A stretch of 64,000 bases of DNA, from the NCBI GenBank assembly GCA_964441335.1, contig CAYTUI010000001.1, forward strand, positions 961 to 64,960, written 5' to 3'. The stretch's first letter is position 1; the number at the start of each line of letters is the position of its first letter. Position numbers and translations under genes: made by a program. This stretch comes from an uncultured Gammaproteobacteria bacterium. Lineage in GTDB: Bacteria; Patescibacteriota; Patescibacteriia; UBA1558; 2-01-FULL-52-15. The notes beneath the pieces were generated by a model that saw nothing but the letters and a program-made list of their open reading frames with translations, was not told the origin of the DNA and did not search any database. This document shows, one piece after another, positions 28,115 to 48,650 of this stretch.

Positions 28115-28162
28115 TTTTTTTTAATTAAAGATAGTGTAAATTTTACAATAAATAATAAAGCC

Positions 28163-29712: not shown

Positions 29713-29957
29713 ATGGCTAATATTAGCAAAAAAATCCATCAGAATATTTTCGATAAGTATCTAAAATAAGGATTTTTATCGAAGATCTGCTGATTAATCT
29801 TCCTGACTTGACAAAAATGGCTAATTTTAGTAAACTTGGCCGTTTACTGTCAGGTCTTGGCAGGTAAATTTTTTTGCTCTTTGTTAAGGAATTTAGCAGT
29901 TTTAAACGCAGACCTTTTGGTCATCAACCACTACCCAGAAACGAGGAGGTATAGGCT

Positions 29958-30875: not shown

Positions 30876-31060
30876 TTGCTGGCTGGTTGGCAGACTGCTT
30901 GGGATGTTAAGCCGGGCTTGTGGGAGGGTCACGTCAGTGACCCTCCCACACCTAATTTTTTAGAAACTTGTTCCCAACAATCGTTGGAGACAAATTTCTA
31001 ACCTTGATTTTTTTGAGGTTATGCACCTTTCCAAGTCAACAACAAACAAGGAGGTAGCCG

Positions 31061-32449: not shown

Positions 32450-32459
32450 TCGTTGAAAG

Positions 32460-32491
32460 CCGCAGGGACGAGCAGCAGCTCGTCCCTGCGG
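32460..32491 (+). terminator. Hairpin terminator CCGCAGGGACGAGC-AGC-AGCTCGTCCCTGCGG
   Basis: 14-bp perfect stem; followed by AT-rich spacer with a second palindrome CCTTGTTTCAAACAAGG. Confidence 0.55.
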
Positions 32492-32600
32492 ACCCAATTT
32501 TGAAATAAAGAATTGCCAGTTTTATAAGTTGTCAGTTCCTTGTTTCAAACAAGGCCAAGTTCTTTGTAAATCTAAGAGATCAAAACCAAGGAGGAAAAAC

Positions 32601-33188
32601 GTGGAACGTACGGTGATTCATAGCGGTTTTTTGCAGCTGGAAGTTGTGGCAACACCACAGGGCCAGAGGGAGCTGGTGCGTACCACTGATTCTCTTTGCC
32701 TGTTGATTTTCGATCAGCTACGCAATCGGCTGATCTTAGTTCGACAGCCGCGGCCTTCACAGATGTCTGAACTCAATCCCGATAGTCCCCTGGCCAATCG
32801 CGAGGGGCTGATCACCGAGTGCTGCGCCGGCCGTTTCGACGGTCGGTATTCTCCGCTGGAGTTGGCGGTCAAGGAAGCCGAGGAGGAAACTGGTATTCAG
32901 GTCAATCCGGAGAATGTCGAGCTGCTGAACGGCGGGCGGCCCATGGCTGTGTCCGCCGGGGTCATCACGGAGTTATCCTATCTGGCGTACGTGAGGATCA
33001 CTTCAGATACCTCCGGTCTCGACCAGAAGTTGCACGGTCGGGCAGATGAGGGTGAGGAGATTCGTCTGGTCAGTCTGGACGCGGATCCTCGTTATCTGCA
33101 GGTGTACTTGGGCGGAGCTTGTCAGGACATTCGTGTCTTCACTCTGCTGCAGTATCATCTCAACAAGATGGAATGTCAGGTGTCCTGA
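32601..33188 (+). CDS. NUDIX hydrolase, ADP-ribose pyrophosphatase-like (start GTG at 32601 after AAGGAGG)
   Basis: Nudix box AGRFDGRYSPLELAVKEAEEETGI; strong SD 7 nt upstream of GTG. ORF track lists 32529..33188. Confidence 0.7.
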   Translation: MERTVIHSGFLQLEVVATPQGQRELVRTTDSLCLLIFDQLRNRLILVRQPRPSQMSELNPDSPLANREGLITECCAGRFDGRYSPLELAVKEAEEETGIQVNPENVELLNGGRPMAVSAGVITELSYLAYVRITSDTSGLDQKLHGRADEGEEIRLVSLDADPRYLQVYLGGACQDIRVFTLLQYHLNKMECQVS

Positions 33189-33212
33189 CAGTTTCCAGGA
33201 GAGGAGTTTTCA

Positions 33213-34838
33213 GTGAGGAGTCTGTATCAAATCGTTCAGCAGATGTTTCCCCTGCAGCGTCTACCCTGGGATGAGTACTTCGCGGCCATGGCGCAGTCCG
33301 ACTTCAAGCTCGGGCGGCACCAGATTCCGGCCACCAAGTCATTCTTTATCAGGTCGGCGCCGTTTGGCGGATCGTTTGCGCTGCTGGGCGGTATTACCGA
33401 AGCCCTACGAACCATCAACGAGTTGCGCTTTGACGCAGATTTCCGGGCGATCATGGAGGAATTCGGCTACGAAGCCGATTTCCTGGACTGGTTGCAATCG
33501 GAAGAACGGTTGAAGGTTCAGGTCTACGCGCCGCCGGAAGGCAGCGTTTTCTTCCCCAGCGAGCCCGTGGTCACTTTTCGTGGGCCGTTGGCGCACATTC
33601 GGCTGGTCGAAGGCATGATGATTGAGGCGCTGAACTTCTCTACCTTGTCACTGACCAAATGGCAGCGACTGGTCAGGGTGGTGCGCCCCGGCTCTGTGTT
33701 GGAGTTCGCTCGTCGGCGATCGCAGCATCATCTCCGATCCTCGCTTTACGGTTTGCTGGCCGGTTGCCGGCAGATCAGCAACAGCGAAGCGGCCCGTCTG
33801 ATCGGCGTAAAGCCGGTCGGTACCATGGGTCATGAGTGGATGCAGTCGTTCGGCGATGTCCGCGAGGCCTTCGATGCCTGGCTCAAGGTCAATCCGCATA
33901 AGCCTGTTGGCTTGGTGGATACCTTGCAGTGTCTGGAGATCGATTTTCCGGCTTGGCTGGAGGCGGTCTACGAGCAGCGCGAGGTTGTAAAGGCCGCTGA
34001 CAGTCCGATCTGGGGCTGGCGCAACGATTCGGGTGACCTTGCCTACCTGACTATTGAGCAGTACATTCGCTTTTGGAAGCATCTGCTGTCTCAGGATCAG
34101 TGGTTTGCCGACCGCATGCACATTGTGCTGACCAACGATCTGGATGAGTACTCTTCGGAGGAAATCATCCAGCAGATTCGTAGCCAGGCCGGAGCCGCCG
34201 GTTTGGATGCCGAGGATCTGCTCCGACGGATCATTTGGGCGGCCGGTACCAAGCCGGGCACCTGCTATGATCAGCCGGCTTTGGGCGGCGTAGCCAAGCT
34301 GATGGAAGTCGATGGTCATGGCTGCATCAAGCTGGCTTTCGATGCCGACGGTAATCCGGGCGCCAAGACCTCGATTCCGGGGTTCAATCGCTCAGCGCTG
34401 ATCCGCGATCGTGATTCCGGTGAAGTTCACTGCCTGTTGATCTATCCGGCCGAGGACACTACTTTCCATCTGTTTGAGCATGATGGAGAAGGTTACTTCG
34501 GTGACGGGCGGAAGGGAGACGCTTGGGAGACCATTACCGCACATCATCCGGACACGCCCGGTTCGGAGCTGCACATCAAGAACTATCTGGTTCAGGGACG
34601 ACAGCAGCTGGTCTTTGATACGATCGATCAGAACGGCCTGACCGACGAGTGGATAGAGGACACTGTACAGTCGGTGGCTGAACGGGTTGTGAGGGAAATT
34701 GATTCCCTGCACTGGACTGTCAGCCGTCTCCGCAAGCCTCATCGGGTCAAGGTCTCTGTCACAGAAGGTCTGTTTGAGCAGCGGACGAATCTGATTCGTA
34801 CCCGCTGTCTGCGAACGGACAAGATGTGGAAGCAGTAG
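33213..34838 (+). CDS. pncB: Nicotinate phosphoribosyltransferase (PncB/NAPRT family, long form)
   Basis: N-terminal DEYFAAMAQ...SFFIRSAPFGGSFALLGGI..AL..L.ELRF and VYAPPEGSVFFPSEPVVTFRGPLAHIRLVE..MIEALNF.TL match type II PRTase NAPRTase conservation. Confidence 0.75.
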   Translation: MRSLYQIVQQMFPLQRLPWDEYFAAMAQSDFKLGRHQIPATKSFFIRSAPFGGSFALLGGITEALRTINELRFDADFRAIMEEFGYEADFLDWLQSEERLKVQVYAPPEGSVFFPSEPVVTFRGPLAHIRLVEGMMIEALNFSTLSLTKWQRLVRVVRPGSVLEFARRRSQHHLRSSLYGLLAGCRQISNSEAARLIGVKPVGTMGHEWMQSFGDVREAFDAWLKVNPHKPVGLVDTLQCLEIDFPAWLEAVYEQREVVKAADSPIWGWRNDSGDLAYLTIEQYIRFWKHLLSQDQWFADRMHIVLTNDLDEYSSEEIIQQIRSQAGAAGLDAEDLLRRIIWAAGTKPGTCYDQPALGGVAKLMEVDGHGCIKLAFDADGNPGAKTSIPGFNRSALIRDRDSGEVHCLLIYPAEDTTFHLFEHDGEGYFGDGRKGDAWETITAHHPDTPGSELHIKNYLVQGRQQLVFDTIDQNGLTDEWIEDTVQSVAERVVREIDSLHWTVSRLRKPHRVKVSVTEGLFEQRTNLIRTRCLRTDKMWKQ

Positions 34839-34970
34839 AGCTGCTACAAGCCGGTGGTCACCAGCAGGTGACCACCGGCCCTTACTTCAGCCTTGTCATA
34901 AAGAAAATGAAAGGGTTGAAGAGAGGCTAGTTCATTCAATGTCTATTCTAAAACCAAGGAGGTGCTCTAA

Positions 34971-35927
34971 ATGAGTTCTGCTCAGCCGATCGCTCACGGT
35001 AGCGGTCAAATGGGGGCGCAGTCTATCTCCATTCAGGTATCCACGCGGGAGCGTTGCAACGCCGGTTGTCGTTTTTGCATTTCGCGAACAACGCCGGGAG
35101 TGGAAACACCGGGCAATCCTCATGAAGTTAAGTTCTGCGATGAGCCGCGTCTGCAGGTCGGGTTGAACTATGCCCGGCAGTTGGGTGCGACGCATGCTAT
35201 CCTGACATCACGAGCTGATCCTTCGCAGGAGGACCCAAGGTATCTGCACCGACTGATCAGTACCAGTCGTCAGTTCTTGCCGCTAGTGGACATGCATACC
35301 AATGGTTTTCTTTGGCTGCCTGGTAAGCCGCAAGCCGATGATCTGTCTATACTGGTGGTTTCGGGTCTGACCATGCTTACTCTGTCGATCGCTTCTTTCG
35401 ATCAAAATCAGAATAGAGAGCTGATGATGATCCGCGAAAGCGGTGCCGGTTTGATCCGTCGGGCTCGGGATTTGGGTCTGCTGGTCCGCTGCTCTTTGGT
35501 TGTCAATTCCCAGGGAGTCAACGATTACCAGGGGGTTATCAACTACATCAAACAGGCCGGCAACCTGGGAGCCCACATGGTGGTCGTTAGAGAAGTCTGG
35601 CGACCGGAAGTGTATGGCGATTTCCAGCCCGAAGTGCTGGACTGGAACAACTGCAACTGGGTGGATATCGGTCCGATCCAGAGTCAGTTTATCCAGGCCG
35701 CCGGCCAGAGGGACAACCCTTACGGCTTGCAGCTTCGTGACCCCTTGCCCTGGGGCACACCGGTTATGGTGATGGGCGGAGTGTTCGACGACCCCAATCA
35801 TGGGGTCAATATCACTTTCGCTCGTTGCGAGGAGGGTACCAGGGGCTCGACCATTAAGAGCATCGTCCATAAGCCCGATGGTCACGGTTATCGCAACTGG
35901 GATCACAACGGCGATATCCTCTACTGA
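34971..35927 (+). CDS. Radical SAM domain protein (CX3CX2C)
   Basis: RERCNAGCRFCISRT cluster-binding motif near N-terminus; no further family assignment possible by eye. Confidence 0.6.
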   Translation: MSSAQPIAHGSGQMGAQSISIQVSTRERCNAGCRFCISRTTPGVETPGNPHEVKFCDEPRLQVGLNYARQLGATHAILTSRADPSQEDPRYLHRLISTSRQFLPLVDMHTNGFLWLPGKPQADDLSILVVSGLTMLTLSIASFDQNQNRELMMIRESGAGLIRRARDLGLLVRCSLVVNSQGVNDYQGVINYIKQAGNLGAHMVVVREVWRPEVYGDFQPEVLDWNNCNWVDIGPIQSQFIQAAGQRDNPYGLQLRDPLPWGTPVMVMGGVFDDPNHGVNITFARCEEGTRGSTIKSIVHKPDGHGYRNWDHNGDILY

Positions 35928-36057
35928 TTAGGTGGAGGACGGGGCATCTGCGTCGGCGCAGATGCCCCCTTTCCCGAGGTCTTATCATCTATAGATAAGG
36001 TCTTAGGAGAGTTCAGTTCTTTAACACGCAACCATCTAAAACCAAGGAGGAGAGGGA

Positions 36058-38082
36058 ATGCTAAAGTCCGAACAGTTTATGGACGTTCGACAGCATGGGT
36101 TTATCCGTTTGGCCGTGATTGTACCCAGAGTTCATTTGGGCAATGTACCGGCAAACGTGGCTGAACATCTGATGAAGATCAGCGAGGTTCGCAGACAAGG
36201 CGCCAGTTATATAGTGGCTCCTGAGTTGAGTCTGACCGGCTACTCCAACGGCGATCTGTTTCATTCACAGGCACTGCTGGAAGCGGCCGTGATCGGTTTG
36301 GGCGAGTTGCTGGAGGCAACGGCAGCCTGGCCGCAGATCATCTCGGTCGGCCTGCCCCTGCTGGTGGACGGCGCGGTCTACAACTGTGCTGTGACCATTC
36401 ATCGGGGCGTTATTCTGGCGGTGGTGCCTAAGGCCTATCCGCCGGAGTATCGCGAGTTTTATGAGCAGCGGCACTTCGCCTCGGCCTATGAGGCTCAGTC
36501 CACTGTTATCAACCTGCTGGGTCAGACAGCTGCTTTCGGAACCGACATTTTGTTGGTTTCGGATCACAACCCGCGTCTGACGATTCACACCGAGGTCTGC
36601 GAAGATCTTTGGGTGCCGATTCCGCCCAGCACTGAGGCGGCTCTAGCTGGCGCAACGGTGCTGGCCAACCTGTCGGCTTCCAATATCACCATCGGTAAGA
36701 GCGGATATCGGGAGCTGTTGGTGGCCGGATCGTCAGCCAAGAATCTGGCTGTGCAGATGTACAGCGCGGCAGGTTTCGGTGAGTCCACGACTGACCTGTC
36801 CTGGGACGGGGAAGCCCTGATCGCCGAGCGTGGCGAAATTCTGGTCAGGGGTCAGCGTTTCAGCCTTGACGGCGGCACTTCAGTTGTGGCCGACGTGGAT
36901 CTGGAGCTGTTGGCACTGGAACGCGCCAGGCAGAATTCCTTCAGGTCAAACGCCAGTCAGCATCCCCGTAAGTTCCGGCGCATCCTGATTACTGGACAGT
37001 TATCTGATGCTGTTCAGGACGGGCTGGAGCAGGTGCATCACAAGTTGCACCGCTTCGTGGATCCGCATCCCTTCGTGCCTAGCGACCAGTCTCAGCGCGA
37101 TGAGCGCTGTCGGGAAACTTTCCTGATTCAGGCAACGGCTTTGGCCAGACGGCTGGAACAGCTGCCACAGGATCGTCGGCACGTGGTGGTGGGTATTTCC
37201 GGTGGACAGGATTCAACGCACGCGCTCAACGTGGCGGTCCATGCTATGGATCTCATGAAGATGCCGCGTCGCAACATCCTGGCGGTAACCATGCCGGGGT
37301 TCGGCACAACCGACCTGACAAAGAACAATGCCGTGGCATTGGTCAAAGCGGTCGGCGCTGAACTGCTGGTGATTCCCGTTAGTGAACTGTCGCTCCTGAT
37401 GTTCCAAAACATCGGGCATAATCCGGATGAGCACGACCTGACCTACGAGAACGTTCAGGCTTGGGCCCGGATGTATACGGAGCTGTCATTAGCTGCCGAG
37501 AAAGGAGGGTTGGTACTGGGGACTGGTGACTTGTCGGAGCTGATGCTTGGCTGGTGTACTTACCTGGGTGATCACGCCAGTCATTATGGTATCAACGCCG
37601 GTGTGCCCAAGACTCTTATTTCCTATCTGATCGCCTGGACCGCAGAGCAGGTCTATGGAGAGAAGGAACCGGAAGTTAGGGGTATTCTGCAGAGCATTCT
37701 GGTAACTCCGATATCACCGGAGCTCTTACCACCGGCGGCTGACGGTTCTATAGCGCAGAGAACGGAAGACAAGGTTGGACCATATGAGCTGCATGATTTC
37801 TTCGGTTATTACTTCGTTCGCTTTGGTTTCAGCCCCAAGCGCATCGTGCGTCTGGCATTGGCTGCCTTTGGCGACAAGTACTCCATCGGAGAGATCAAGT
37901 CTTGGTTCAGGCTCTTCCTGACTCGTTTCTTCCGGAATCAGTTCAAGCGATCTTGTTTGCCCGATGGTCCCAAGGTAGGTCTGACGTGCATCTCGCCTCG
38001 CGGTGACTGGCGGATGCCCTCGGATGCTGACCCGACTGTTTGGCTTCAGGATCTGGAGCTGGTACCGGACAACCTCAACTAG
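36058..38082 (+). CDS. nadE: Glutamine-dependent NAD+ synthetase NadE (nitrilase-like glutaminase domain plus NAD synthetase domain)
   Basis: N-terminal CN-hydrolase fold (IVAPELSLTGY, ...CEDLW); C-terminal PP-loop VVGISGGQDST and long 674-aa architecture like actinobacterial NadE. Confidence 0.9.
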   Translation: MLKSEQFMDVRQHGFIRLAVIVPRVHLGNVPANVAEHLMKISEVRRQGASYIVAPELSLTGYSNGDLFHSQALLEAAVIGLGELLEATAAWPQIISVGLPLLVDGAVYNCAVTIHRGVILAVVPKAYPPEYREFYEQRHFASAYEAQSTVINLLGQTAAFGTDILLVSDHNPRLTIHTEVCEDLWVPIPPSTEAALAGATVLANLSASNITIGKSGYRELLVAGSSAKNLAVQMYSAAGFGESTTDLSWDGEALIAERGEILVRGQRFSLDGGTSVVADVDLELLALERARQNSFRSNASQHPRKFRRILITGQLSDAVQDGLEQVHHKLHRFVDPHPFVPSDQSQRDERCRETFLIQATALARRLEQLPQDRRHVVVGISGGQDSTHALNVAVHAMDLMKMPRRNILAVTMPGFGTTDLTKNNAVALVKAVGAELLVIPVSELSLLMFQNIGHNPDEHDLTYENVQAWARMYTELSLAAEKGGLVLGTGDLSELMLGWCTYLGDHASHYGINAGVPKTLISYLIAWTAEQVYGEKEPEVRGILQSILVTPISPELLPPAADGSIAQRTEDKVGPYELHDFFGYYFVRFGFSPKRIVRLALAAFGDKYSIGEIKSWFRLFLTRFFRNQFKRSCLPDGPKVGLTCISPRGDWRMPSDADPTVWLQDLELVPDNLN

Positions 38083-38088
38083 AGGTTT

Positions 38089-38131
38089 GACCCCGCCCCA
38101 ACACTTTTGTGTCATGGGCGGGGTCTTTTTT
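38089..38131 (+). terminator. Rho-independent terminator closing the GC-rich NAD island
   Basis: GACCCCGCCC-loop-GGGCGGGGTC followed by TTTTTT. Confidence 0.7.
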
Positions 38132-40132: not shown

Positions 40133-40208
40133 CGGGGTGTGGCGCAGTTGGTAGCGCGCATGCATGGGGTGCATGAGGCCGTGGGTTCAAGTCCCGCCAC
40201 CCCGACCA
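40133..40208 (+). tRNA. tRNA-Pro (anticodon GGG), CCA encoded
   Basis: CGGGGTG-TG-GCGC AGTTGGTA GCGC, anticodon stem CATGC/GCATG with loop ATGGGGT, T-arm GTGGG-TTCAAGT-CCCGC, 3' CACCCCGACCA. Confidence 0.8.
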
Positions 40209-40369: not shown

Positions 40370-40444
40370 TCCGCGGTAGCTCAGTGGTAGAGCAGCTGAC
40401 TGTTAATCAGCGGGTCGTCGGTTCGAACCCGACCCGCGGAGCCA
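40370..40444 (+). tRNA. tRNA-Asn (anticodon GUU), CCA encoded
   Basis: TCCGCGG-TA-GCTC AGTGGTA GAGC, anticodon loop CTGTTAA, T-arm GTCGG-TTCGAAC-CCGAC, 3' CCGCGGAGCCA. Confidence 0.85.
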
Positions 40445-40500: not shown

Positions 40501-41202
40501 ATGAAGTGTAAATATAACACTAGAAATATGACTCGACCTAAAAGTATTGACGTTAAAAAATTAAAGTTTGCTATTATTGCTGTTGATGTGGCTGTCTTTC
40601 GGATTAACAACGGGATTTTAGAAGTGTTGCTGGGGGAGGTTATGAATCCTCACTTTAGAAACAGACCTGGTCTGATCGGTGGAGTTATCGAGACAACCGA
40701 AACAGCCGAGCAGGCAGTTGTTAATCATTTAAAAAATAAGACGGGCGTCAAAGTTGATTTTATTGAACAACTTCAGACATTTAGTAGAATTGACAGGGAT
40801 CCCCGCGGTCGCGTTTTGTCGGTTGCCTATTTGGCTATTATCAATAAGATAAGCCCTGTCGGAGGAAATATTAGAACCGTTTGGGTTCCAATTAACCAGG
40901 CCAAAAATTTAGCCTATGACCACGATGAAATATTGCGGGTAGCTGGTGAAAGACTGCGGGCTAAATTTGGTTATACTAATATTGCCCAGCATTTTTTACC
41001 GTTGAATTTTACTTTAACCGAACTGCAACAGGTTTATCAGATTGTTATGAATCAAACTATAGACAAGAGGAATTTTAGACGTAAAGTATTGAATGTCGGT
41101 TTAGTAGCACCGACCGGCAGAACAACGACTAAAGGCACCAAGAAACCTGCGCAACTGTTCAGATTCGCATCGTTGAAGCCAAAAATCATTGAACTGTTTT
41201 AA
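40501..41202 (+). CDS. Second NrtR-like regulator (Nudix-like domain plus C-terminal wHTH), paralog of 27440..28114
   Basis: Same architecture and alignable motifs (GG.IE..E.....V...L..KTGV, AYDH..I...A.ERLR.K..YTNI, FTLTELQ.VY..I....DKRNFR.KVL..GL). Confidence 0.7.
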   Translation: MKCKYNTRNMTRPKSIDVKKLKFAIIAVDVAVFRINNGILEVLLGEVMNPHFRNRPGLIGGVIETTETAEQAVVNHLKNKTGVKVDFIEQLQTFSRIDRDPRGRVLSVAYLAIINKISPVGGNIRTVWVPINQAKNLAYDHDEILRVAGERLRAKFGYTNIAQHFLPLNFTLTELQQVYQIVMNQTIDKRNFRRKVLNVGLVAPTGRTTTKGTKKPAQLFRFASLKPKIIELF

Positions 41203-41418
41203 TTTATCAGGGCGATATTTTTTTGCTTGTGAATAAGTGTCTACTTGACACTTATTTTGATTGTTGCTAAGGTAGAGGCAGAGGAGAAAGTGGACAACTA
41301 TTTAAGGGATTGACAAAATTCTATAAATATTGTAGGTTCACCAACTCTGTTTCTTTGACAATTTATAAGATATTTATAGTGAAATGGCCAAGAAACCTTG
41401 AAAGGAGGTGGACGACCA

Positions 41419-42245
41419 TGATTGTGAAACACGGAGACCGGCAATTCGAAGCCGGTCGTCTGGTGGCCGATAACGGCCGTTATCGCCAGTATCTCTGCGT
41501 GGAGATTGGCGCTGACAAGGAAAAGGAGTGTTTGTTGCAGATCGCCACCGCTACCAATGGTAACGGTCAACTCGATCGGGCAGCCTACTTCCTTCAGGAA
41601 CTTGAGCGTCGAGCTCGCGAAGTGGAGAAGGAGTTCAAGAAGGTCAGAACCGATCCCAAGGTGATGCTCAATTACGGGCTGGGCTTTCCCAAGCTGGTTG
41701 ACAGCTTCGTCTGTCAGGAGCAGGGCGGCCGCCGTATCAACATCCTGGCTTTCAGACGCGTTGATCAGGTTGGTCAGATGATCCCTTTGAGTAGTGTGAT
41801 CAAAAGCAACCTGATGATTGACCGTCGTACTAGCGTCTGGATTCTGGGAAAGCTTCTCAAGCTGTTGACTTTTAGTCACAGTGAAGGGATTGCTGTCGGA
41901 CGCCTGGACGCTGACAACATTCTGCTTCAGCCGAATCAGCACTACGTGGTGTTGTTTGACTGGTCGGAAGGAAGTCAGTATCCGGAAAAAGTGCCTGCGG
42001 AAATCGCCTGTCAGGAGATCACTCAAGCTGCCATATCAGTTATGGCCGCCCTGTACTATGATCCGGAGTCTGGGAAATTCCCTGACGATCCGGATGATCC
42101 TGACGATCGTTATGTCAAGCACCTGATGACTCTGGCTAAAGGTCAGGAGCATCGGGCGGATCAGGCTCACCAGGAATTCTACAAACTGGTTGACACTATC
42201 TGGGAAAGGAGATTCTACCCCTTTACGACTCGACCGAAGTTCTGA
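41419..42245 (+). CDS. APH/ChoK-like (aminoglycoside-phosphotransferase-fold) small-molecule kinase-like protein, GC-rich
   Basis: Catalytic-loop-like GRLDADNILL and metal-binding VVLFDWSEG (IDWE-type) motifs; start ATG 41419 after AAAGGAGG. ORF track lists 41310..42245. Confidence 0.5.
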
Positions 42246-42288
42246 AGCTACGCTACGTTAGACCAACGAAAGAAGGAGGACGAGTACT

Positions 42289-43452
42289 ATGGGACGCGAT
42301 ACCTTGTCTCGTGATGCCTTTACCAGAGTCAGCTCGTTGGCGACGAGGGGTGGCAGGAAAGCCACTCACGATGCTGAAGAGCAAGTCAGACAAGGCAAGG
42401 GTATTGATCCCCTTGTTGATCCGAAAGGGCCGTCTCATCTCGGTCCGATTCGTAGGTCGCTGCCGCGTTTTGAGAAGCAGAAGTCGCTTTGGCGATTGGT
42501 GATGAACATGCCGATGGCCGAGGAGACCCTGCTGGATACGACCGGTTCTATGCAACAAAACGTGGAGCTGGCGTTCGCGGCGTTGCCGAAGTCGTTCGGG
42601 ATGTACACCGAAGGATCTTGTCCGGTACTGGGTAGATACGATGTCCAGATCGCCACCGGAATCTTCAACGACGTCGACGATCTTGATGCAAATCCGTATG
42701 CCCAGGTCCTGTGTCGTTCGCAGTTTGAAATGGGCGAGAAGATCGCCTTGCAGATGACTCGGATGATCCCGGGACGCAACGGCTGCGGCAACTTCAAGGA
42801 GGATTCACAGTTTGGGCTGTTCGGAGCCGCCTATCTGACGGATGCCAGGATCACGAAGTACGGCCTCAGGACCTATCATTTCACGGTGTCGGACGAGCCG
42901 ACCGTGGAAACGATCGAACTGGGCTGGCTGAAGAAGATCTTCGGCGACGACGTGCTGGAGCGAACGGCCGAGAACGGCTGGGACTTCACCGCGCGTACTC
43001 TGCCGGACACGGCGCAGGCAGTTCGTGACCTGCAGACGCGGGCTCACGCCTTCTTTCTGCAAGTTCCGGGTTGGCATGATGAACGCAGGGTCACGAATCA
43101 GTGGACCGAGCTTTACGGCCCGGCTCATTTCGTGATGCTGCCCGGCGGGACTGAGTATGTGCACGCTGTCAAGGGCTGCATCATCGGTCTGACCGAGGGT
43201 GTTATCAGTCTCTCGTCGGCCAAGGACTTCCTGCGCGAGCATGGGGTTCCGGCTGACGCGGCTGCCAAAATCGTCCGCGCAGTCGCGCATATTCCTCTGG
43301 CAGCGCAGACCCTGGCTCCGAACTTCGACAAGCTGCCGAAGGTTGGGGATCTCTTCAAGGAAAAGACCGACCTCTGGCCGGTTGATCCCCAAGAGGTGCC
43401 GGAAGCGACTGTTGAAGACAAGGACAAGGGCGAGGAGACCGAGTGGCTGTAG
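42289..43452 (+). CDS. von Willebrand factor A (vWA) domain protein, TerY-like
   Basis: MIDAS motif LLDTTGSM after a ~70-aa N-terminal extension; strong SD GAAGGAGGA. Confidence 0.55.
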   Translation: MGRDTLSRDAFTRVSSLATRGGRKATHDAEEQVRQGKGIDPLVDPKGPSHLGPIRRSLPRFEKQKSLWRLVMNMPMAEETLLDTTGSMQQNVELAFAALPKSFGMYTEGSCPVLGRYDVQIATGIFNDVDDLDANPYAQVLCRSQFEMGEKIALQMTRMIPGRNGCGNFKEDSQFGLFGAAYLTDARITKYGLRTYHFTVSDEPTVETIELGWLKKIFGDDVLERTAENGWDFTARTLPDTAQAVRDLQTRAHAFFLQVPGWHDERRVTNQWTELYGPAHFVMLPGGTEYVHAVKGCIIGLTEGVISLSSAKDFLREHGVPADAAAKIVRAVAHIPLAAQTLAPNFDKLPKVGDLFKEKTDLWPVDPQEVPEATVEDKDKGEETEWL

Positions 43453-43498
43453 CTCCTTAACCTGACAACCGTAAATCCTAAACCAAAGAGAGGTGACT

Positions 43499-44884
43499 AT
43501 GACCAAGAAGGTCTACCTGGTCACCGATCTCGGTCCTGGAGACGGTGGTAAAGGTGGAGTGGTACACAAAGTCTCCAAGCTGATGCGTGCCCACACCATC
43601 ATCAAGGTTGGGGGTGCGCAAGGAAGCCATGGAGTCAGAACCTCAACAGGCGAACACTTCGCTTTCAGCCAATGGGGTTGCGGCACATTCGAGGGGGTGA
43701 GGTCTTACCTCTCCCCTCGGATGGTCGTTTCCCCGGAAGGGCTACTGAACGAAGCTGACGTTCTCCGCTACCGCTGGGGTATTTATAACCCCTTTGATCT
43801 ACTGATAGTGGACCAAAGGGCGTTGTGTGCCACGGCGTATCACGGGATTGCTTCGCGTCTAAAAGAAATGGCGCGCAAGGATAATCCCCGTGGCACGATC
43901 GGTACCGGAGTTGGCGAGGCTTACCGCGCTGCACAGCGGTTCCCTGATCTGGCGATTTATGCCCGTGATCTAAAACGGGCTGATCTGCGAGATCGGTTGG
44001 CCGTTGTTAGGCAACAACAGCAACAGGAATTGGCGCCGATCATAGCGGCGGAGTTTCTGCTCTATGATCAAGACGCCGTCGCCAAGGAAGTTAGTTGTCT
44101 GTTTGATGACGACTTCCTGGATTTCGTCGTTAGGCGGTTCCAAGAAGTATCCCAAAGAGCAACCATTGTTGACCAGGACTATCTGGGACGGGAAATCCTG
44201 TCCCGAGACGGTGTGGTCGTCGTGGAAAGCTCGCATGGGGTGCTGACTGATCACTACGCCGGGTTCCATCCGCACACCAGCGCCATTCGGACATTGCCTT
44301 GTTTCACCGAGGTGATGCTCCGGGAGGCTGGTTACAACGGACCAATCATCAACCTCGGGGTAACCCGAGCCTATCAGATACGCCACGGCGCAGGTCCGCT
44401 GCCAACTGCTGATCCAGCGTTGTCAGAGAATCTGTTGCCCGGCAGTCACAAGCAGGACAATCGTTACCAGGGCCAGGTTCGCGTTGGACCTCTGGACTTG
44501 GTGCTACTGCGCTACGCTCTGGCGGCTTGCGGCGGTCCAACTAGTTTTGATGGTTTGGCCATTACCTGGTTTGACCAGATTCAAGCTAATGGAGTTTGGC
44601 GTTTCTGTGACCGTTACCAAGGCAGTGACGACCCGACCTACTTCACGCCGTCCGGTGAGTTGCGGGTGCGGTTCGGAGCTGATGAAGAGCAGTTGTCCTT
44701 TCAAGAAAATCTCGGGCGTCAGCTTGGCAGTTGTCGTCCGGAGATTACTACCCAAGATATCCCGACGAGCATGGGGCGTGATGATCTGTATGATCTTTGC
44801 GCCAATACTCTGAAGGAGAAACTGGGTGTCCCTGTTCGCATGGTTTCGTTCGGTCCGACCGAGCGGGACAAAGTCTGCAAGTAA
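43499..44884 (+). CDS. Divergent adenylosuccinate synthetase (PurA)-like enzyme
   Basis: Alignable with PurA: P-loop TDLGPGDGGKGGVV (vs GDEGKGK), GGAQGSHGV (vs QGGHNAGHT), PRGTIGTGVGEAY (vs IGTTGRGIGPAY), VVESSHGVLTDHYAGFHPHTSA (vs [22 protein letters not shown]), TRAYQIRHGAGPLP (vs KAYSTRVGAGPFP). Confidence 0.65.
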   Translation: MTKKVYLVTDLGPGDGGKGGVVHKVSKLMRAHTIIKVGGAQGSHGVRTSTGEHFAFSQWGCGTFEGVRSYLSPRMVVSPEGLLNEADVLRYRWGIYNPFDLLIVDQRALCATAYHGIASRLKEMARKDNPRGTIGTGVGEAYRAAQRFPDLAIYARDLKRADLRDRLAVVRQQQQQELAPIIAAEFLLYDQDAVAKEVSCLFDDDFLDFVVRRFQEVSQRATIVDQDYLGREILSRDGVVVVESSHGVLTDHYAGFHPHTSAIRTLPCFTEVMLREAGYNGPIINLGVTRAYQIRHGAGPLPTADPALSENLLPGSHKQDNRYQGQVRVGPLDLVLLRYALAACGGPTSFDGLAITWFDQIQANGVWRFCDRYQGSDDPTYFTPSGELRVRFGADEEQLSFQENLGRQLGSCRPEITTQDIPTSMGRDDLYDLCANTLKEKLGVPVRMVSFGPTERDKVCK

Positions 44885-44913
44885 ATGCGTGAACGCGAAA
44901 GGAGATAGTGCAG

Positions 44914-46083
44914 ATGAGTGAAGATCGGGAAGGAACGCGGCAAATTTCCGCGGGTGATGCTATCGCTTTGTTGCTCACCGACCACGGCTTGGAAGCCGCG
45001 GTTATCGACAAGATCAAGACCGATCTGGGCGCCGCTACCGTTGAGGATTTGTCGGCGCTGACCGAAGCCGACCTCGTCGGTATCGGCATGAAGAAGCTGC
45101 CGGCTCGCAAGCTGGTGGCGGATCTGAAGCCGGTGGAGGTTGCTCCGACACCTGCGGCCAGTCCGGTCAGTACCATGTCCTTCGATTCCATCCTGCCCAA
45201 CGTCCCTACGGACTCTTCCTGGCTGGAAGCGCTTCGGACGGGCGGTGTTCTCAAGGTCGATCAGTCCACCGTCATCGGCGCCATTCGGGCGGCCTTGGCT
45301 CACAAGGCCAGGCTGTATGACATCCCGGACGGGCTGGTGACCATGTTGGAACGGTTCGCCGAGGAGAACGAGGAACAGGTGGACGTCGAGTTCTTCAAGT
45401 TGAAGAAGCAGCTGACCCGCCGAAACTACGCCGAGATCTTCTCGGCCATCGAAGGGCTGGACGGCAGCTACGTGACCGAGGGTCGGAAGAAGCAGCTGTT
45501 CGGTCGCATCGACGAGCATCTCTGGCCGTCGATCGAAACCTTCTACGGCCAGTTGAAGGGCTGGCAGGAGGCTTGGCTCCAGGGCGGGGCCAATCCGATG
45601 ATCATGATGAGCGCGATCATGGCGGCTTCGGGCGGCGGCGCGGGTGTCATGCCTCCCGGCGTGATGCAACCGCCGGATACCGGGGGGCTCCGTGATCATG
45701 CCGACGCCGTGGCCGACGCCATCAACAAGTGCTTCGCTGGCACTGGCGTGCAGATCGCGTCGGCTTTGGCCTACGATGCCACCAAGATCCGGGAGACGTT
45801 GGAGAACCCGCGTCTGCCGGCACTGGTCGGAGCTGCCAACCGCGATCAGATGCTCCGGCAACTGGGAGTGGCCGTTTCGGCCACCTACCCGCGGCTGGAG
45901 ACCAATCTGACCCGCTTCGTCCTGTCGACGTTGCAGGTCAAGGACCAGGCGGCCGGCACCGAGGAGCTGCAGTACTTCAGCTCCCTGTTCATGCTCGGGT
46001 CGCAGATCCCTTGGGATCAGCTTGGTAACAAGCGTCCCAGTGGCAAGCTCTCGGGCATCGGCGTCACGAGGCGCGACCTCTAG
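44914..46083 (+). CDS. Hypothetical protein, last gene of the GC-rich 4-gene operon
   Basis: ATG 44914 with SD AAAGGAG; 389 aa, Ala/Gly-rich, no recognisable motif; followed by terminator. Confidence 0.5.
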   Translation: MSEDREGTRQISAGDAIALLLTDHGLEAAVIDKIKTDLGAATVEDLSALTEADLVGIGMKKLPARKLVADLKPVEVAPTPAASPVSTMSFDSILPNVPTDSSWLEALRTGGVLKVDQSTVIGAIRAALAHKARLYDIPDGLVTMLERFAEENEEQVDVEFFKLKKQLTRRNYAEIFSAIEGLDGSYVTEGRKKQLFGRIDEHLWPSIETFYGQLKGWQEAWLQGGANPMIMMSAIMAASGGGAGVMPPGVMQPPDTGGLRDHADAVADAINKCFAGTGVQIASALAYDATKIRETLENPRLPALVGAANRDQMLRQLGVAVSATYPRLETNLTRFVLSTLQVKDQAAGTEELQYFSSLFMLGSQIPWDQLGNKRPSGKLSGIGVTRRDL

Positions 46084-46111
46084 ATCCAACGCGGTTCTGG
46101 AGTAACCTTGG

Positions 46112-46148
46112 GGCCGGACAACGACATGTTGTCCGGCCTCTTTTTTTA
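46112..46148 (+). terminator. Rho-independent terminator (GGCCGGACAACG-ACAT-GTTGTCCGGCC plus T9)
   Basis: Perfect 11-bp stem then TCTTTTTTTT; marks end of GC-rich island 2. Confidence 0.75.
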
Positions 46149-46198: not shown

Positions 46199-48127
46199 TT
46201 ATTTAGAAATTTTTGGCAGAAAAACCCGGCTGGCAAATAGTTTGGTAGCTGTTTGCCGATAACCAGAATCCCAAAAGGTGCTTTGACCGTCAATCAAATC
46301 AGAATGCGGAGTGCTAATACCACCAAAGGTAGGGAAATATCGGCTATAACCTTTATGCATTAGTCGGTAGTGCAAAGTGTCCCGTTCCATTTCTTCAAGA
46401 TATAAACCTCGTGCTTCCCGATCGTAAATTATTTTATCTGTGTCATACATATATGGCGTCAGCAATTGGCCTTGCAATTGTTTAATGGTTGTCTTATCAC
46501 CTTCCCAGGCCGCTCCAAACAAGACATGTGTCCAGGTACTATGACCAAGTGAAACATCAGGTTTGTCAAAGTCGCGGACAGCTAAGCCGTCAGCAGTTTC
46601 TTCCAGCCAAAATTCAACCACTTGCCCCTGTATCTTTTCATGAGAGAATATTTTTCTTAGTGCAGCCTGTAATTGACCGCGATTATCCGAAGAGGTGCCG
46701 GGTTTGATAAATACTCCAACATCAATGTCGGCGTTTTGCTGACCATAACCTTTGAGGCGCGAGCCAAAAATCAAAGCCACTGGGTAGATGAATTTTGTCA
46801 GTTCATGATCAGATTCAATTAAGCCAATAATATCTTGGACATCGCTCATCTCGGTTTTCATAGTTTTAAGGTTTTCGGAAAACGGGCCAGCTAATTGAGG
46901 GATGGTGATATCTAGTTTGTCTAACTGTTGATCATCTAAAATACCTAATCCGTGCAACCGACAAAATGTTTTGGACAAAGCCTCGCGGATTTCCATCGTG
47001 TCATTATCCCATAAAGATAGCAGTGTTTCCCGATAGCGATCGTATAGTGCCAGAGCTTCATCATTGGACGCAGTTTCAACAGCCATTCTAATGCCTTCAA
47101 TTAAAGCCAGTTGGCAGGTAGGATCAGCTTCAGCTGTGGCTAATTGTGAGACAATCTCAGCCGACAGTTTATTGTCGGCAATGGCCAGACTGATATCCTC
47201 GGCGGCTGATTTAACGGCTTGCTGTTTCTTTTCTTGTTTAAGCCAAGCTGTCCGTTTTTTAGTGATGCCCCTAATCTCTTCAGCGTCAATGCGACTAAAT
47301 TCTTCTCGCAGTTTATTTTGTAGTGTTGATAATGTTATGTCTGACGATTGAACTTTATCGTCATCTTTATTTTCCCATGAGCTGATAAGTATTGCCATAT
47401 TGCGAGCTAGCGGATCGGCAGAGGCCTTAAGACGCGCTATTTCAGGTTTTTGTATGAACCCTAGATCAGCTAACACGGGCAGGGTATCGGCAATACTTTG
47501 TTTTAAAGTCTCATCCTCGCTGGTTTCCAATAGTTTAAAAACGTCTTCAATTGCAATTAAATTATTTTCTACCAATTTAGGAATTAGATGAGCAGCTTTG
47601 ACGACTCGGGGTAAATCAGACACTCGCGATTCTACTTCCAGAACATCGCCGTCAACAAAATTAGCCCGGACATCATGTATATGCAGTAAATCATTCCAAG
47701 CGGCTAAATAGGCTTCTTTAAATTGTGCGGCTGCCTTTTTGAGTTCTGGCGATTCAGGCTGCCAATCAGCCTTTGGTAAAAATTCAAAAGGCAGATAGAG
47801 AACAAGACGTTTATAGTCCGAGCTGGTCTCTAATAAATTGCTTAGTGAGACGTATAATTCAGCTACCTGGCTTTCAGTTAAATGATTTTCAGAGACAGCA
47901 CTTTGTAAAGTGATATCTGGTCGCGGCAGTCTGGAGATAACAGCGTCCAGCCGTTGGTTAAGCTCTTGCCTGTCGGCCACTTGTTTTAAAAATTCTTTAT
48001 TGTCGCTAAGGTGCTCGGGCCAGGCAATTTTGGCTTGTTCAGGATCAAGCAGTAACTCTACGGCCGGTGGAGTAAAAATGTCGATTTTGGGTAACTCTTT
48101 TTGGTTGTCTAATCTTTCGTTATTCAT
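46199..48127 (-). CDS. Large (642 aa) protein with C-terminal Pol-beta-superfamily nucleotidyltransferase domain and long helical N-terminal region
   Basis: GSRLKGYGQQNADIDVGVFIKP (GS-x10-DxD) NTase signature near residue 490, with downstream acidic EFWLEE. The N-terminal 480 aa are helical and unassigned. Confidence 0.55.
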   Translation of the reverse strand: MNNERLDNQKELPKIDIFTPPAVELLLDPEQAKIAWPEHLSDNKEFLKQVADRQELNQRLDAVISRLPRPDITLQSAVSENHLTESQVAELYVSLSNLLETSSDYKRLVLYLPFEFLPKADWQPESPELKKAAAQFKEAYLAAWNDLLHIHDVRANFVDGDVLEVESRVSDLPRVVKAAHLIPKLVENNLIAIEDVFKLLETSEDETLKQSIADTLPVLADLGFIQKPEIARLKASADPLARNMAILISSWENKDDDKVQSSDITLSTLQNKLREEFSRIDAEEIRGITKKRTAWLKQEKKQQAVKSAAEDISLAIADNKLSAEIVSQLATAEADPTCQLALIEGIRMAVETASNDEALALYDRYRETLLSLWDNDTMEIREALSKTFCRLHGLGILDDQQLDKLDITIPQLAGPFSENLKTMKTEMSDVQDIIGLIESDHELTKFIYPVALIFGSRLKGYGQQNADIDVGVFIKPGTSSDNRGQLQAALRKIFSHEKIQGQVVEFWLEETADGLAVRDFDKPDVSLGHSTWTHVLFGAAWEGDKTTIKQLQGQLLTPYMYDTDKIIYDREARGLYLEEMERDTLHYRLMHKGYSRYFPTFGGISTPHSDLIDGQSTFWDSGYRQTATKLFASRVFLPKISK

Positions 48128-48650
48128 AGTGGGTATTATAAACTACTGTCTGCCTAGAACACAAGCGGGTATTTTTACGCAACAACTTGTGGTTATCTTT
48201 AGATAGAATGGAATAGATGAAGCCCCGTCCAGATGTACCGAACGGGGCTTCGCGAGCATTCATCGCACTTGCGTGCGGGCAGGAGTGAACCAACCGGTTC
48301 TGATGTCGTTTCGCCTACATATAGGGTGTCGTCTTTTGTTCCACTTGGGGAACTGTGTCCCGCTTGGGAACCCCTTTGCGAAAACGTTGCCACCAGTCAC
48401 TCCTGATTGTGCCTGATTGCCGCTCCGAGCGCTATCTACCAGCTACGGGGGATGGTCCGTCACGAGATTCACGCGAACCTCCTAGTTGATCCGACACTGG
48501 TCGATGGATAGCTAGCTCCCGAAGGAACCGCTGGCAACATACTATACTTTATTTGGTAAATTGTCAATATCAGTCGGTTTAGGGCTAAATAAATGGTATA
48601 ATATAATCATGAAATTTAAGTTTAGAGGCTTTACCCAGCACCGTTTTTGT

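What the first reader, a model, noticed from the sequence alone, without database searches (positions are those of the whole stretch)
46199..48127. 642-aa protein with C-terminal minimal nucleotidyltransferase (GS-x10-DxD) and a 480-aa helical N-terminal region
The architecture does not match GlnE or GlnD (no HD or ACT domain), CCA-adding enzymes or PAPs. The NTase core followed by an acidic EFWLEE segment resembles cGAS/DncV-like or MNT-type nucleotidyltransferases. It is encoded convergently next to island 2 and could be a regulatory NMPylating enzyme or a conflict-system NTase.
Basis: partly seen in the sequence, partly recalled or inferred. Interest (0 to 1): 0.5.

Follow-up and report, generated by a model that had tools for sequence, protein, structure and literature searches.

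The report
HEAT-repeat nucleotidyltransferase tied to NrtR operon
This gene encodes an uncharacterised enzyme, found widely in Patescibacteria (the tiny "CPR" bacteria), that probably attaches nucleotides to a partner; it almost always sits beside an operon carrying the binding site of an NAD-sensing regulator, which points to an undescribed NAD-linked pathway rather than a phage-defence gene.

Summary
Window 46199-48127 (-) encodes a 642-aa protein with an acidic HEAT-like helical N-terminal region (~1-440) and a C-terminal Pol-beta nucleotidyltransferase (NTase) core (G455-S456-x10-D467-x-D469, conserved in 250-252 of 252 relatives).

It is not a mobile or conflict gene. It defines a sharply bounded family (542 clusters at 50% identity) with host-like GC and no relatives in viral contigs. 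All named hits are Patescibacteria.

In 61 of 64 informative genomes it lies tail-to-tail with one operon: a kinase-like protein, an unknown protein, a repurposed adenylosuccinate-synthetase-fold enzyme, and sometimes a SAM-domain protein.

The operon carries a 21-bp palindrome (TnAGTGT-N7-ACACTnA) that fits the published NrtR operator signature. The NTase gene generally lacks it.

The closest folds are AMP-transferring enzymes (MNT/MntA, DrrA, ANT, GlnE). It fails the tests for MntA, CD-NTase, GlnE, GlnD and CCA/PAP families.

Best reading (about 0.35): a separately expressed, GlnE-like regulatory adenylyltransferase acting on a product of the neighbouring operon. Substrate and chemistry are untested.

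The parts
46199..48127 (-). Gene for the 642-aa HEAT-like + Pol-beta NTase protein (NT642)
   Evidence: ORF. Full-length homologues at 46-61% identity among the 120 best hits; the few named ones are all Patescibacteria. 542 representative clusters in the exhaustive search.
46808..48127 (-). N-terminal helical HEAT/ARM-like region (residues ~1-440), acidic
47579..47683 (-). Highly conserved N-terminal motif (residues 149-183): D152-V-R154-A-N156-F157-x-D159-G160-D161 ... K177..H180..P183. Residues 156-163 form a low-confidence loop.
   Evidence: Conservation 234-252 of 252. pLDDT <50 for residues 156-163. This is one of the most conserved blocks of the protein.
46448..46807 (-). Pol-beta NTase core (residues ~441-560)
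46721..46765 (-). Catalytic signature G455-S456-x10-D467-x-D469 (also fits G-x11-D-x-D)
   Evidence: G and S 252/252, D467 251/252, D469 250/252.
46202..46447 (-). Conserved, mildly basic C-terminal helical tail (residues 561-642) with E581, R588, H591, D620, R624
   Evidence: Conservation 247-252 of 252. Blocks 581-600 and 621-640 are the most conserved in the protein. Confident only in the full-length model (block-mean pLDDT 76-94) and poor in isolation (38-46), which suggests it packs on the N-terminal region.
46110..46140 (+). Terminator-like hairpin (14-bp stem, then a T-run) between the two convergent stop codons
   Evidence: sequence.
44908..46083 (+). Operon gene D (391 aa): SAM-like N-terminal domain, the rest unknown. 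It has the highest GC (0.63, GC3 0.81). Variable accessory gene, undetected in about a third of loci.
   Evidence: No hit in solved structures by profile.
43493..44884 (+). Operon gene C (463 aa): divergent adenylosuccinate-synthetase-fold enzyme, not a PurA equivalog
   Evidence: PF00709 110 bits. NCBIfam purA 71 bits against a cutoff of 395. About 40 bits to solved PurA; keeps GDGGKG and the catalytic His but loses the EGAQG and TTGRxRR signatures. Convergent within 3 kb of NT642 homologues in 61/64 loci.
42289..43452 (+). Operon gene B (387 aa): unknown family with a DxTxS (LDTTGSM) motif; always paired with gene C, even in the sister clade that lacks the NTase
41418..42245 (+). Operon gene A (about 275 aa): protein-kinase-like. 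Its sister-clade orthologues carry an extra J domain.
   Evidence: phrog_3043 'kinase' 7.9e-12. Weak Pkinase. Sister-clade DnaJ + Pkinase. Homology at the same operon position.
41234..41254 (.). Candidate NrtR operator upstream of the operon (TAAGTGTCTACTTGACACTTA)
   Evidence: Exact core AGTGT-N7-ACACT. The same motif lies within 400 nt upstream of the operon in 20/52 genome loci and 11/37 metagenome loci. It fits the published NrtR signature of a 21-bp palindrome with core GT-N7-AC (PMC2330246).
40503..40523 (.). Second exact candidate NrtR operator, overlapping the nrtR start codon
40501..41202 (+). nrtR (NUDIX + NrtR winged-helix regulator) immediately upstream of the operon
   Evidence: PF21906 1.6e-22, PF00293. 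nrtR lies within 10 kb of the module in 15/74 loci.

Best explanation
NT642 is a catalytically competent Pol-beta-superfamily nucleotidyltransferase. It is fused to an acidic HEAT-like scaffold and a conserved C-terminal helical tail, and it founds an uncharacterised family in which all named members are Patescibacteria.

It is functionally coupled to the adjacent operon, which carries an NrtR-type operator. That operon encodes kinase-like A, unknown B, adenylosuccinate-synthetase-fold C and, in many genomes, SAM-domain D.

Proposed mechanism (inferred, not shown). NT642 is expressed from its own promoter, independently of the operator. It uses the HEAT-like region to bind one of the operon's proteins, or a ligand. 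It then transfers a nucleotidyl group, most likely AMP from ATP, to a hydroxyl group of that protein. This would add covalent post-translational control on top of the ADP-ribose-responsive transcriptional control of the operon. GlnE acts on glutamine synthetase in this way, MntA on HepT, and DrrA on Rab1.

Confidence by layer:
- Active NTase of a new family: about 0.9.
- Functional coupling to the operon: about 0.8.
- Protein-adenylylating regulator specifically: about 0.35.
For: Shown:
- GS-x10-DxD is conserved in 250-252 of 252 relatives.
- The AdSS-like gene lies tail-to-tail within 3 kb in 61/64 informative genome loci. Reciprocally, every informative locus whose AdSS-like gene is >=37% identical has the NTase next door, 31 convergent and 1 co-directional.
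- Pairwise divergence of NT and C across 52 genomes correlates (r=0.69) as well as that of operon genes B and C (r=0.67).
- An NrtR-type 21-bp palindrome lies upstream of the operon in 20/52 and 11/37 loci, but upstream of the NTase gene in only 2/64 and 0/21. Exact sites number 26 against 1.2 expected from shuffles (signature from PMC2330246). This fits a regulator expressed separately from its target.
- The N-terminal half is strongly acidic (pI 4.7, net -16), which fits protein or ligand binding better than nucleic-acid binding.
- The gene is not mobile: GC and GC3 are host-like, and no relative occurs in viral contigs.
Against: - No substrate has been identified, and no structural contact or complex prediction could be run.
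- The expected third catalytic carboxylate, E505, is acidic in only 83% of members (Q in 23 of 252).
- Nucleotide specificity (ATP or another NTP) is unknown.
- A sister clade of the A-B-C operon works without any NTase, so the NTase is accessory, not essential, to the core chemistry.
- In a Saccharibacteria-type subset (L041, L072, L073, similarly L052) the NTase gene lies downstream of, and co-directional with, a nadE and nrtR gene string. L041, L072 and L073 have an exact box at the head of that string. 'Separately expressed' may therefore not hold everywhere.
Confidence: 0.35

Rival explanations
1. Pathway enzyme acting on a small molecule. NT642 nucleotidylates a hydroxyl group of a metabolite, for example the nucleotide-like product or substrate of the AdSS-fold enzyme, as aminoglycoside or lincosamide nucleotidyltransferases do. 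The conserved tail and the N-terminal motif would form the substrate pocket.
Against: A pathway enzyme would be expected to share the operon's strand and operator. Instead the gene is convergent and lacks the NrtR-type box in 62/64 and 21/21 loci. The sister clade runs A-B-C without it. A 440-residue HEAT-like scaffold is unusual for small-molecule NTases.
Confidence: 0.25
2. Nucleotide second-messenger synthase or conflict-system NTase (CD-NTase/CBASS-like).
For: CD-NTases appear among the fold matches (CdnG 5.6, CdnB 5.6, CdnE 5.2). A kinase-like and possibly vWA-like neighbourhood recalls NTP-dependent conflict systems (PMC7159879; resemblance only).
Against: No SMODS or CD-NTase model hits, and the only PADLOC hits are weak PDC-S09 matches at the generic motif. 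No effector, HEPN, TIR, SAVED or patatin neighbour was seen. Conservation is vertical across many lineages with host-like GC. The gene is absent from viral contigs. The partner operon carries an NrtR-type box alongside NAD-metabolism genes.
Confidence: 0.08
3. RNA 3'-end nucleotidyltransferase (tailing or repair enzyme) that uses the HEAT/ALK-like region to hold nucleic acid, as AlkD holds DNA.
Against: The N-terminal region is strongly acidic family-wide (pI 4.7, net -16). No PolyA_pol, PAP or CCA family model is hit apart from the shared GS..DxD region. The context is metabolic or regulatory rather than RNA-related.
Confidence: 0.07
4. MNT-type antitoxin of a type VII toxin-antitoxin pair.
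For: The best fold and weak HMM matches are MNT/MntA.
Against: The MntA equivalog scores 24.5 bits against a cutoff of 60. No HEPN gene is adjacent in the four neighbourhoods with gene calls. The protein is about five times larger than MNT proteins. Its synteny is with a different, multi-gene operon.
Confidence: 0.02

Closest known systems
MntA / MNT minimal nucleotidyltransferases (type VII TA antitoxins; PDB 5yep, 7ae2, 2rff, 1no5)
   Same: Best structural and HMM match for the catalytic core. Both have GS-x10-DxD. MntA AMPylates a protein (HepT) (my knowledge of the family; fold scores).
   Different: MNTs are single-domain proteins of about 100-140 aa paired with a HEPN toxin. NT642 is 642 aa with a HEAT-like N-terminal region and a conserved tail, has no HEPN partner, scores below the MntA cutoff (24.5 vs 60), and is conserved with a different operon.
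GlnE (glutamine synthetase adenylyltransferase)
   Different: GlnE has two tandem NTase domains and its own Pfam families, none of which is hit. NT642 has a single NTase domain, at the C-terminus. No glutamine synthetase is involved.
DrrA/SidM AMPylation domain (Legionella)
   Different: DrrA is a secreted effector with GEF and P4M domains. There is no detectable sequence similarity and the biology is unrelated.
Aminoglycoside/lincosamide nucleotidyltransferases (ANT(9), ANT(3'')(9), ANT(4'), LinB)
   Different: These are about 250-290 aa resistance enzymes. None has a HEAT region, and no family HMM is hit.
CD-NTases (cGAS/DncV-like, CBASS)
   Different: No family model hit, no effector genes, and the gene is neither patchy nor mobile.

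Membership tests
Pol-beta nucleotidyltransferase superfamily | hG[GS]-x9-13-Dh[DE]h motif on the first two strands | tested here: met
   G455-S456-x10-D467-I-D469, kept in 250-252 of 252 relatives.
Pol-beta nucleotidyltransferase superfamily | alpha/beta minimal NTase fold | tested here: met
Pol-beta nucleotidyltransferase superfamily | third catalytic carboxylate on the next strand | tested here: inconclusive
   E505 lies on the predicted strand 504-511. It is E or D in 209/252 and Q in 23.
MntA/MNT antitoxin (type VII TA) | reaches the NCBIfam equivalog NF047752 cutoff | tested here: not met
   24.5 bits against a cutoff of 60.
MntA/MNT antitoxin (type VII TA) | adjacent HEPN (HepT) toxin gene | tested here: not met
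   No HEPN gene in the window or in three distant loci with gene calls and Pfam. The C-terminal R588-x2-H591 does not fit Rx4-6H.
CD-NTase / SMODS (CBASS) | match to CD-NTase/SMODS family models | tested here: not met
CD-NTase / SMODS (CBASS) | operon with an effector (and Cap) genes; patchy, mobile distribution | tested here: not met
   The neighbours are the A-B-C-D operon. Synteny holds in 61/64 loci across many lineages. No viral relative.
GlnE | two tandem NTase domains with GlnE-specific family models | tested here: not met
GlnD | NTase + HD + ACT domains | tested here: not met
   No HD or ACT hits. H151 of the 'HD' pair is conserved in only 137/252.
CCA-adding enzymes / poly(A) polymerases | PolyA_pol head domain followed by C-terminal RNA-binding body/tail | tested here: not met
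   Only a 14.6-bit MTPAP-like hit at the shared motif. The helical region is N-terminal and acidic.
NrtR regulon (genes preceded by an NrtR operator) | 21-bp palindrome with core GT-N7-AC upstream of the gene (PMC2330246) | tested here: not met
   For NT642 itself there is no site in 48128-48560, and only 2/64 and 0/21 homologue loci have one. For the partner operon the test is met: an exact site at 41234-41254, and sites in 20/52 and 11/37 loci. Binding of NrtR to these sites was not tested.
Protein-AMPylating NTases (GlnE/DrrA/MntA-like function) | transfer of AMP to a protein hydroxyl group | not testable with these tools
   Requires biochemistry. Only fold resemblance and context support it.

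The most novel reading that the evidence does not exclude
NT642 is the covalent-control arm of an undescribed five-gene module that responds to ADP-ribose/NAD through NrtR. The module is conserved across many Patescibacteria lineages. In it, a repurposed adenylosuccinate-synthetase-fold enzyme, a kinase-like protein and an unknown (possibly vWA-like) protein carry out new NAD-linked chemistry or signalling, and the HEAT-NTase switches it on or off by adenylylation. An older A-B-C core, also NrtR-linked, exists in a sister clade on contigs of quite different GC. That core might correspond to the long-unassigned NrtR-regulated genes 'nrtX-nrtY' (PMC2330246); this last point is an untested lead.
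Probability: 0.25. Interest if true: 0.78.

Novelty: new variant of a known kind. Interest (0 to 1): 0.58.

Why it matters
Patescibacteria have tiny genomes, so a 642-aa protein kept in a fixed position in so many lineages is likely to matter for their biology. Public records call it only a "hypothetical protein" or "nucleotidyltransferase domain-containing protein".

Its constant partner is annotated as adenylosuccinate synthetase. That label is probably wrong, which would distort metabolic reconstructions of purine salvage in these organisms.

Linking the module to an NrtR-type operator gives a concrete, testable entry point. ADP-ribose-responsive control can be tested by EMSA, and covalent control by in-vitro nucleotidylation. 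Both bear on NAD homeostasis in bacteria that depend on their hosts for cofactors. [quoted passage not shown]

Tried and rejected
1. NadD/NMNAT replacement. Rejected: the window already encodes two cytidylyltransferase-like NMNAT domains, one NadR-like and one in an NMNAT-NAD-kinase fusion.

2. The GC-rich 330-nt segment upstream of NT642 as a family-wide riboswitch or leader. Rejected: there is no Rfam hit at E<=1, and it is not conserved upstream of any other homologue. It remains a candidate organism-specific ncRNA.

3. The 21-bp palindrome at 41234 as an operator repeated within the window, using the long pattern. Only the one site was found. The shorter core AGTGT-N7-ACACT, derived from cross-locus comparison, then succeeded.

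4. HD-domain reading of 'H151-D152'. Rejected: H151 is only 54% conserved and there are no HD hits.

5. Domain fusions in unusually long family members (P0166, P0249, P0259, P0180, P0020). They carry no extra Pfam domains.

6. Profile searches of B (A3) and D (A4) against solved structures gave nothing significant.

7. vWA identity of B rests only on a DxTxS motif and one weak VWA_4 hit (E 0.0074, 1 of 19 members). It is left as a lead.

8. Full-length Foldseek against PDB gave only insignificant ARM/HEAT matches.

9. The isolated C-terminal model was poorer (pLDDT 68), so matches involving the tail are unreliable.

10. Literature searches for the family, the module and nrtX/nrtY found no description.

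Full report
**1. The observation**

The ORF at 46199..48127 (minus strand, ATG, 642 aa) exists as described. It is a real gene. An identical protein is on public contigs of up to 175 kb. The word-index search found 325 homologues at E<=1e-3; the 120 best listed are mostly full length at 46-61% identity. The few hits that carry names are all Patescibacteria/CPR (Uhrbacteria, Falkowbacteria, Spechtbacteria and others).

An exhaustive HMMER search of 1.84 billion cluster representatives found 542 clusters at E<=1e-3, 502 at <=1e-10 and 411 at <=1e-30. The 150 best listed are nearly all close to full length, so the family is discrete and sharply bounded.

The NTase motif is G455-S456-x10-D467-x-D469. 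Over 252 near-full-length relatives, G455 and S456 are invariant, D467 is kept in 251 and D469 in 250. A confident AlphaFold model (pLDDT 87.5, pTM 0.87) shows an almost purely helical region up to about residue 445, an alpha/beta NTase core (about 447-560) and a helical tail.

E505, on the strand where the third catalytic carboxylate is expected, is acidic in 83% and Q in 9%. E509 and E510 vary.

**2. Family assignment**

Curated libraries see only the generic motif:
- Pfam Polbeta scores 26.6 bits against a cutoff of 26.9, and NTP_transf_2 17.8.
- The NCBIfam MntA equivalog scores 24.5 against a cutoff of 60.
- PADLOC gives only weak PDC-S09 hits, and PHROGs gives none.
- There is no sequence match in the PDB. 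A profile of the C-terminal part finds only weak matches at the GS..DxD region: HI0073/MNT E 0.0056, GLD-2, MntA and LinB.

All of the better matches transfer AMP to a hydroxyl group of a protein or an antibiotic. The scores show a generic Pol-beta fold and not membership of any of these families.

Three other blocks are conserved about as strongly as the catalytic motif:
- an N-terminal motif, D152-V-R154-A-N156-F157-x-D159-G160-D161 ... K177, H180, P183, whose central loop is modelled with low confidence;
- residues 581-600;
- residues 621-640, with E581, R588, H591, D620 and R624.

The tail is confidently modelled only in the full-length context. I infer that the tail, the N-terminal motif and the NTase cleft form one functional site. 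I could not inspect the coordinates to check this.

The N-terminal half is strongly acidic throughout the family (median pI 4.7, net charge -16). That argues against an AlkD-like nucleic-acid-binding surface.

**3. Context: the neighbour is a conserved partner, not a foreign island**

The GC-rich block 41.3-46.1 kb encodes four co-directional genes:
- A is about 275 aa and kinase-like (phrog 'kinase' 7.9e-12, weak Pkinase).
- B is 387 aa with no family match.
- C is 463 aa with the adenylosuccinate-synthetase fold.
- D is 391 aa with a SAM-like N-terminal domain.

NT642 converges on this block, and a strong terminator-like hairpin lies between the two stop codons.

In three distant homologue loci the same arrangement recurs. 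Across 72 distinct loci from GTDB species representatives, 61 of 64 informative loci have the AdSS-like gene convergent within 3 kb downstream of the NTase gene. The window's housekeeping neighbours do not recur: ParA, TopA and the pilin-like gene never, RelA once.

The reciprocal test used a metagenome scan with the AdSS-like profile. Every informative locus whose C gene is at least 37% identical to the window's carries the NTase next door, 31 convergent and one co-directional.

Pairwise divergence of NT and C across 52 genomes correlates at r=0.69. Operon genes B and C correlate at r=0.67. So the NTase shares the operon's evolutionary history.

No relative exists in 2.9 million viral contigs. 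NT642 has host-type composition (GC 0.42, GC3 0.37), whereas the operon genes have GC3 of 0.58-0.81. This difference is systematic. Across about 60 loci the operon genes exceed their flanks by 7-15 GC points, whatever the host GC, while the NTase gene differs from the flanks by +0.4 points. I have no explanation for it.

**4. The partner enzyme is not PurA**

Gene C is annotated 'adenylosuccinate synthetase' in public records. It scores only 71-72 bits against PurA equivalogs whose cutoffs are 395-402, and about 40 bits against solved PurA structures.

The alignment keeps the phosphoryl-transfer elements, the P-loop GDGGKG and the catalytic His. It replaces PurA's EGAQG (IMP-binding Gln) with ESSHG, and the aspartate-binding TTGRxRR with YQGQVRV. 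Assigning roles to those PurA residues rests on my knowledge of E. coli PurA. C scores better against the phage PurZ-type PHROG (146.8 bits), but scores from different libraries are not comparable. I read C as a repurposed AdSS-fold NTP-dependent ligase with an unknown substrate.

**5. An older core and the NrtR link**

A sister clade of C (33-38% identity, on contigs of GC 0.48-0.70) keeps a B-like gene immediately upstream, by profile HMM at E 1e-8 to 1e-32. It has no NTase within 6 kb.

In that clade the gene upstream of B is a J-domain plus protein-kinase-like protein. It is homologous to A at the same operon position. The ancient unit is therefore A-B-C, and the clade containing the window adds the HEAT-NTase and, variably, D.

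An NrtR-family regulator (NUDIX plus NrtR winged helix) lies directly upstream of the operon in the window. It lies within 10 kb of the module in 15 of 74 genome loci, with NadE in 8 and NMNAT/NAD kinase in 7, and it is again divergent from the sister-clade operon.

The window's other GC-rich island (30-38 kb) is a set of NAD genes: an NMNAT-NAD-kinase fusion, a NUDIX protein, an NAPRTase, a radical-SAM-like protein and NadE. A NadR-like gene lies just upstream.

Comparing NrtR-operon intergenic regions from 13 loci revealed a shared palindrome, T(T/A)AGTGT-N7-ACACT(A/T)A. The exact core occurs 26 times in 1.18 Mb of genome loci against 1.2 expected from shuffles, and 20 times against 0.8 in the metagenome loci.

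| Region scanned (400 nt upstream) | Genome loci | Metagenome loci |
|---|---|---|
| First operon gene | 20/52 (11 exact) | 11/37 (6 exact) |
| NTase gene | 2/64 | 0/21 |

Many of the operon sites are in loci with no nrtR gene nearby.

[quoted passage not shown] In that study ADP-ribose suppressed NrtR binding to DNA in vitro (PMC2330246).

In the window, exact sites lie at 41234-41254 (upstream of A) and 40503-40523 (over the nrtR start codon). A one-mismatch site at about 28131 precedes the NadR-like operon. None lies upstream of NT642.

The operon therefore carries an NrtR-type box and is a candidate regulon member. The NTase is a syntenic, co-inherited neighbour that generally has no box of its own. 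There is one nuance. In a Saccharibacteria-type subset (L041, L072, L073, similarly L052) the NTase gene lies downstream of, and co-directional with, a nadE and nrtR gene string. L041, L072 and L073 have an exact box at the head of that string, so read-through is possible there.

**6. Mechanism**

Shown:
- an intact, strongly conserved Pol-beta catalytic signature;
- near-obligate synteny and co-inheritance with the operon;
- an operator on the operon but not on the NTase gene;
- an acidic HEAT-like scaffold;
- no features of mobility or defence.

Inferred: NT642 is a separately expressed nucleotidyl (probably adenylyl) transferase. It would use its scaffold to bind a product of the operon and modify it covalently, as GlnE does to glutamine synthetase. 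My confidence in this specific reading is about 0.35.

The main rival, at about 0.25, is a small-molecule NTase working on the substrate or product of the AdSS-fold enzyme. The ANT-like fold matches and the polar conserved pocket favour it. The separate strand, the missing operator and the large scaffold count against it. A second-messenger synthase (0.08), an RNA-tailing enzyme (0.07) and an MNT antitoxin (0.02) are less likely, for the reasons given under the rival explanations.

**7. Novelty**

I found no description of the family or the module in the searchable literature. Public names are 'hypothetical protein' or 'nucleotidyltransferase domain-containing protein'.

It is a new variant of a known kind. 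The catalytic fold is known, but the architecture and the genomic system it belongs to appear undescribed.

[quoted passage not shown] I could not establish whether these correspond to the A-B-C core, because no locus tags or supplement were available.

Noticed in passing
window 30000-38100 and 41300-46100; also about 60 homologue loci: Both GC-rich 'islands' (GC 0.55-0.63, GC3 0.58-0.81, against background GC3 of 0.33-0.45) are functionally coherent: one holds NAD-metabolism genes and the other the A-B-C-D operon. Across about 60 genomes the operon genes exceed their flanks by 7-15 GC points whatever the host GC. This is not a one-off foreign island, and the cause is unexplained (selection on codons, or recurrent exchange among lineages?).
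   Followed up: partly
window 48200-48540 (minus strand): A GC-rich segment of about 330 nt lies between the pilin-like gene and the NT642 start. It is preceded by the best sigma-70-like promoter in the scan (TTGACA-17-TAGTAT, 48567->48539) and ends in a 14-bp perfect hairpin. Fold z-score is -3.3. There is no Rfam, tRNA or tmRNA hit, and it is not conserved in other loci. It is a candidate unclassified ncRNA or an organism-specific leader.
   Followed up: partly
window 43493-44884 (+): This gene is annotated publicly as adenylosuccinate synthetase, but it scores far below the PurA equivalog cutoffs and lacks PurA's IMP- and aspartate-binding signatures. It is probably misannotated across Patescibacteria genomes, which affects purine-salvage reconstructions.
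   Followed up: partly
window 40503-40523, 41234-41254, about 28131-28151; 31 operon loci elsewhere: A candidate NrtR operator, T(T/A)AGTGT-N7-ACACT(A/T)A, occurs at the nrtR start, upstream of the operon, and (with one mismatch) upstream of the ORF 28163-28741 / NadR-like operon. The exact core is about 20-fold over shuffle expectation.
   Followed up: yes
L130-L159 (e.g. L143:3771-7302, L148:2831-7332, L137:3252-7383): A sister clade of the operon, on contigs of GC 0.48-0.70, has a J-domain + kinase-like protein, a B-like protein and an AdSS-like protein, often with a divergent nrtR but no NTase. It might correspond to the unassigned NrtR-regulated 'nrtX-nrtY' genes of PMC2330246; this was not tested.
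   Followed up: partly
window 42289-43452 (+), residues ~83-88: Protein B carries an invariant D83-x-T85-x-S87 (LDTTGSM) that resembles a vWA MIDAS motif. Only 1 of 19 members gives a weak VWA_4 hit (E 0.0074), and there is no PDB profile hit.
   Followed up: partly
window 31061-32449 (+) and 28708-29712 (+): A fusion of a cytidylyltransferase-like (NMNAT-type) domain with NAD kinase (462 aa), and a separate NadR-like protein (NMNAT-type + AAA_28 kinase).
   Followed up: no
window 48128-48150 compared with 41400-41420, 31045-31063 and 29940-29960: NT642 has no Shine-Dalgarno-like sequence, and a perfect TATAAT lies 7 nt upstream of its ATG, so it may be leaderless. The GC-rich island genes have strong GGAGG sites (sequences).
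   Followed up: no
window 40133-40208 and 40370-40444 (+): tRNA-Pro(GGG) and tRNA-Asn(GTT) lie immediately upstream of nrtR.
   Followed up: no
L012, L015, L018, L027, L030, L032, L059, L076: The record titles call these MAGs Gammaproteobacteria, Omnitrophota or Deltaproteobacteria. Most of them nevertheless carry the same NTase-plus-operon module at 43-51% identity (L076 is more distant, 27% by tblastn). They are probably mislabelled or mis-binned.
   Followed up: no
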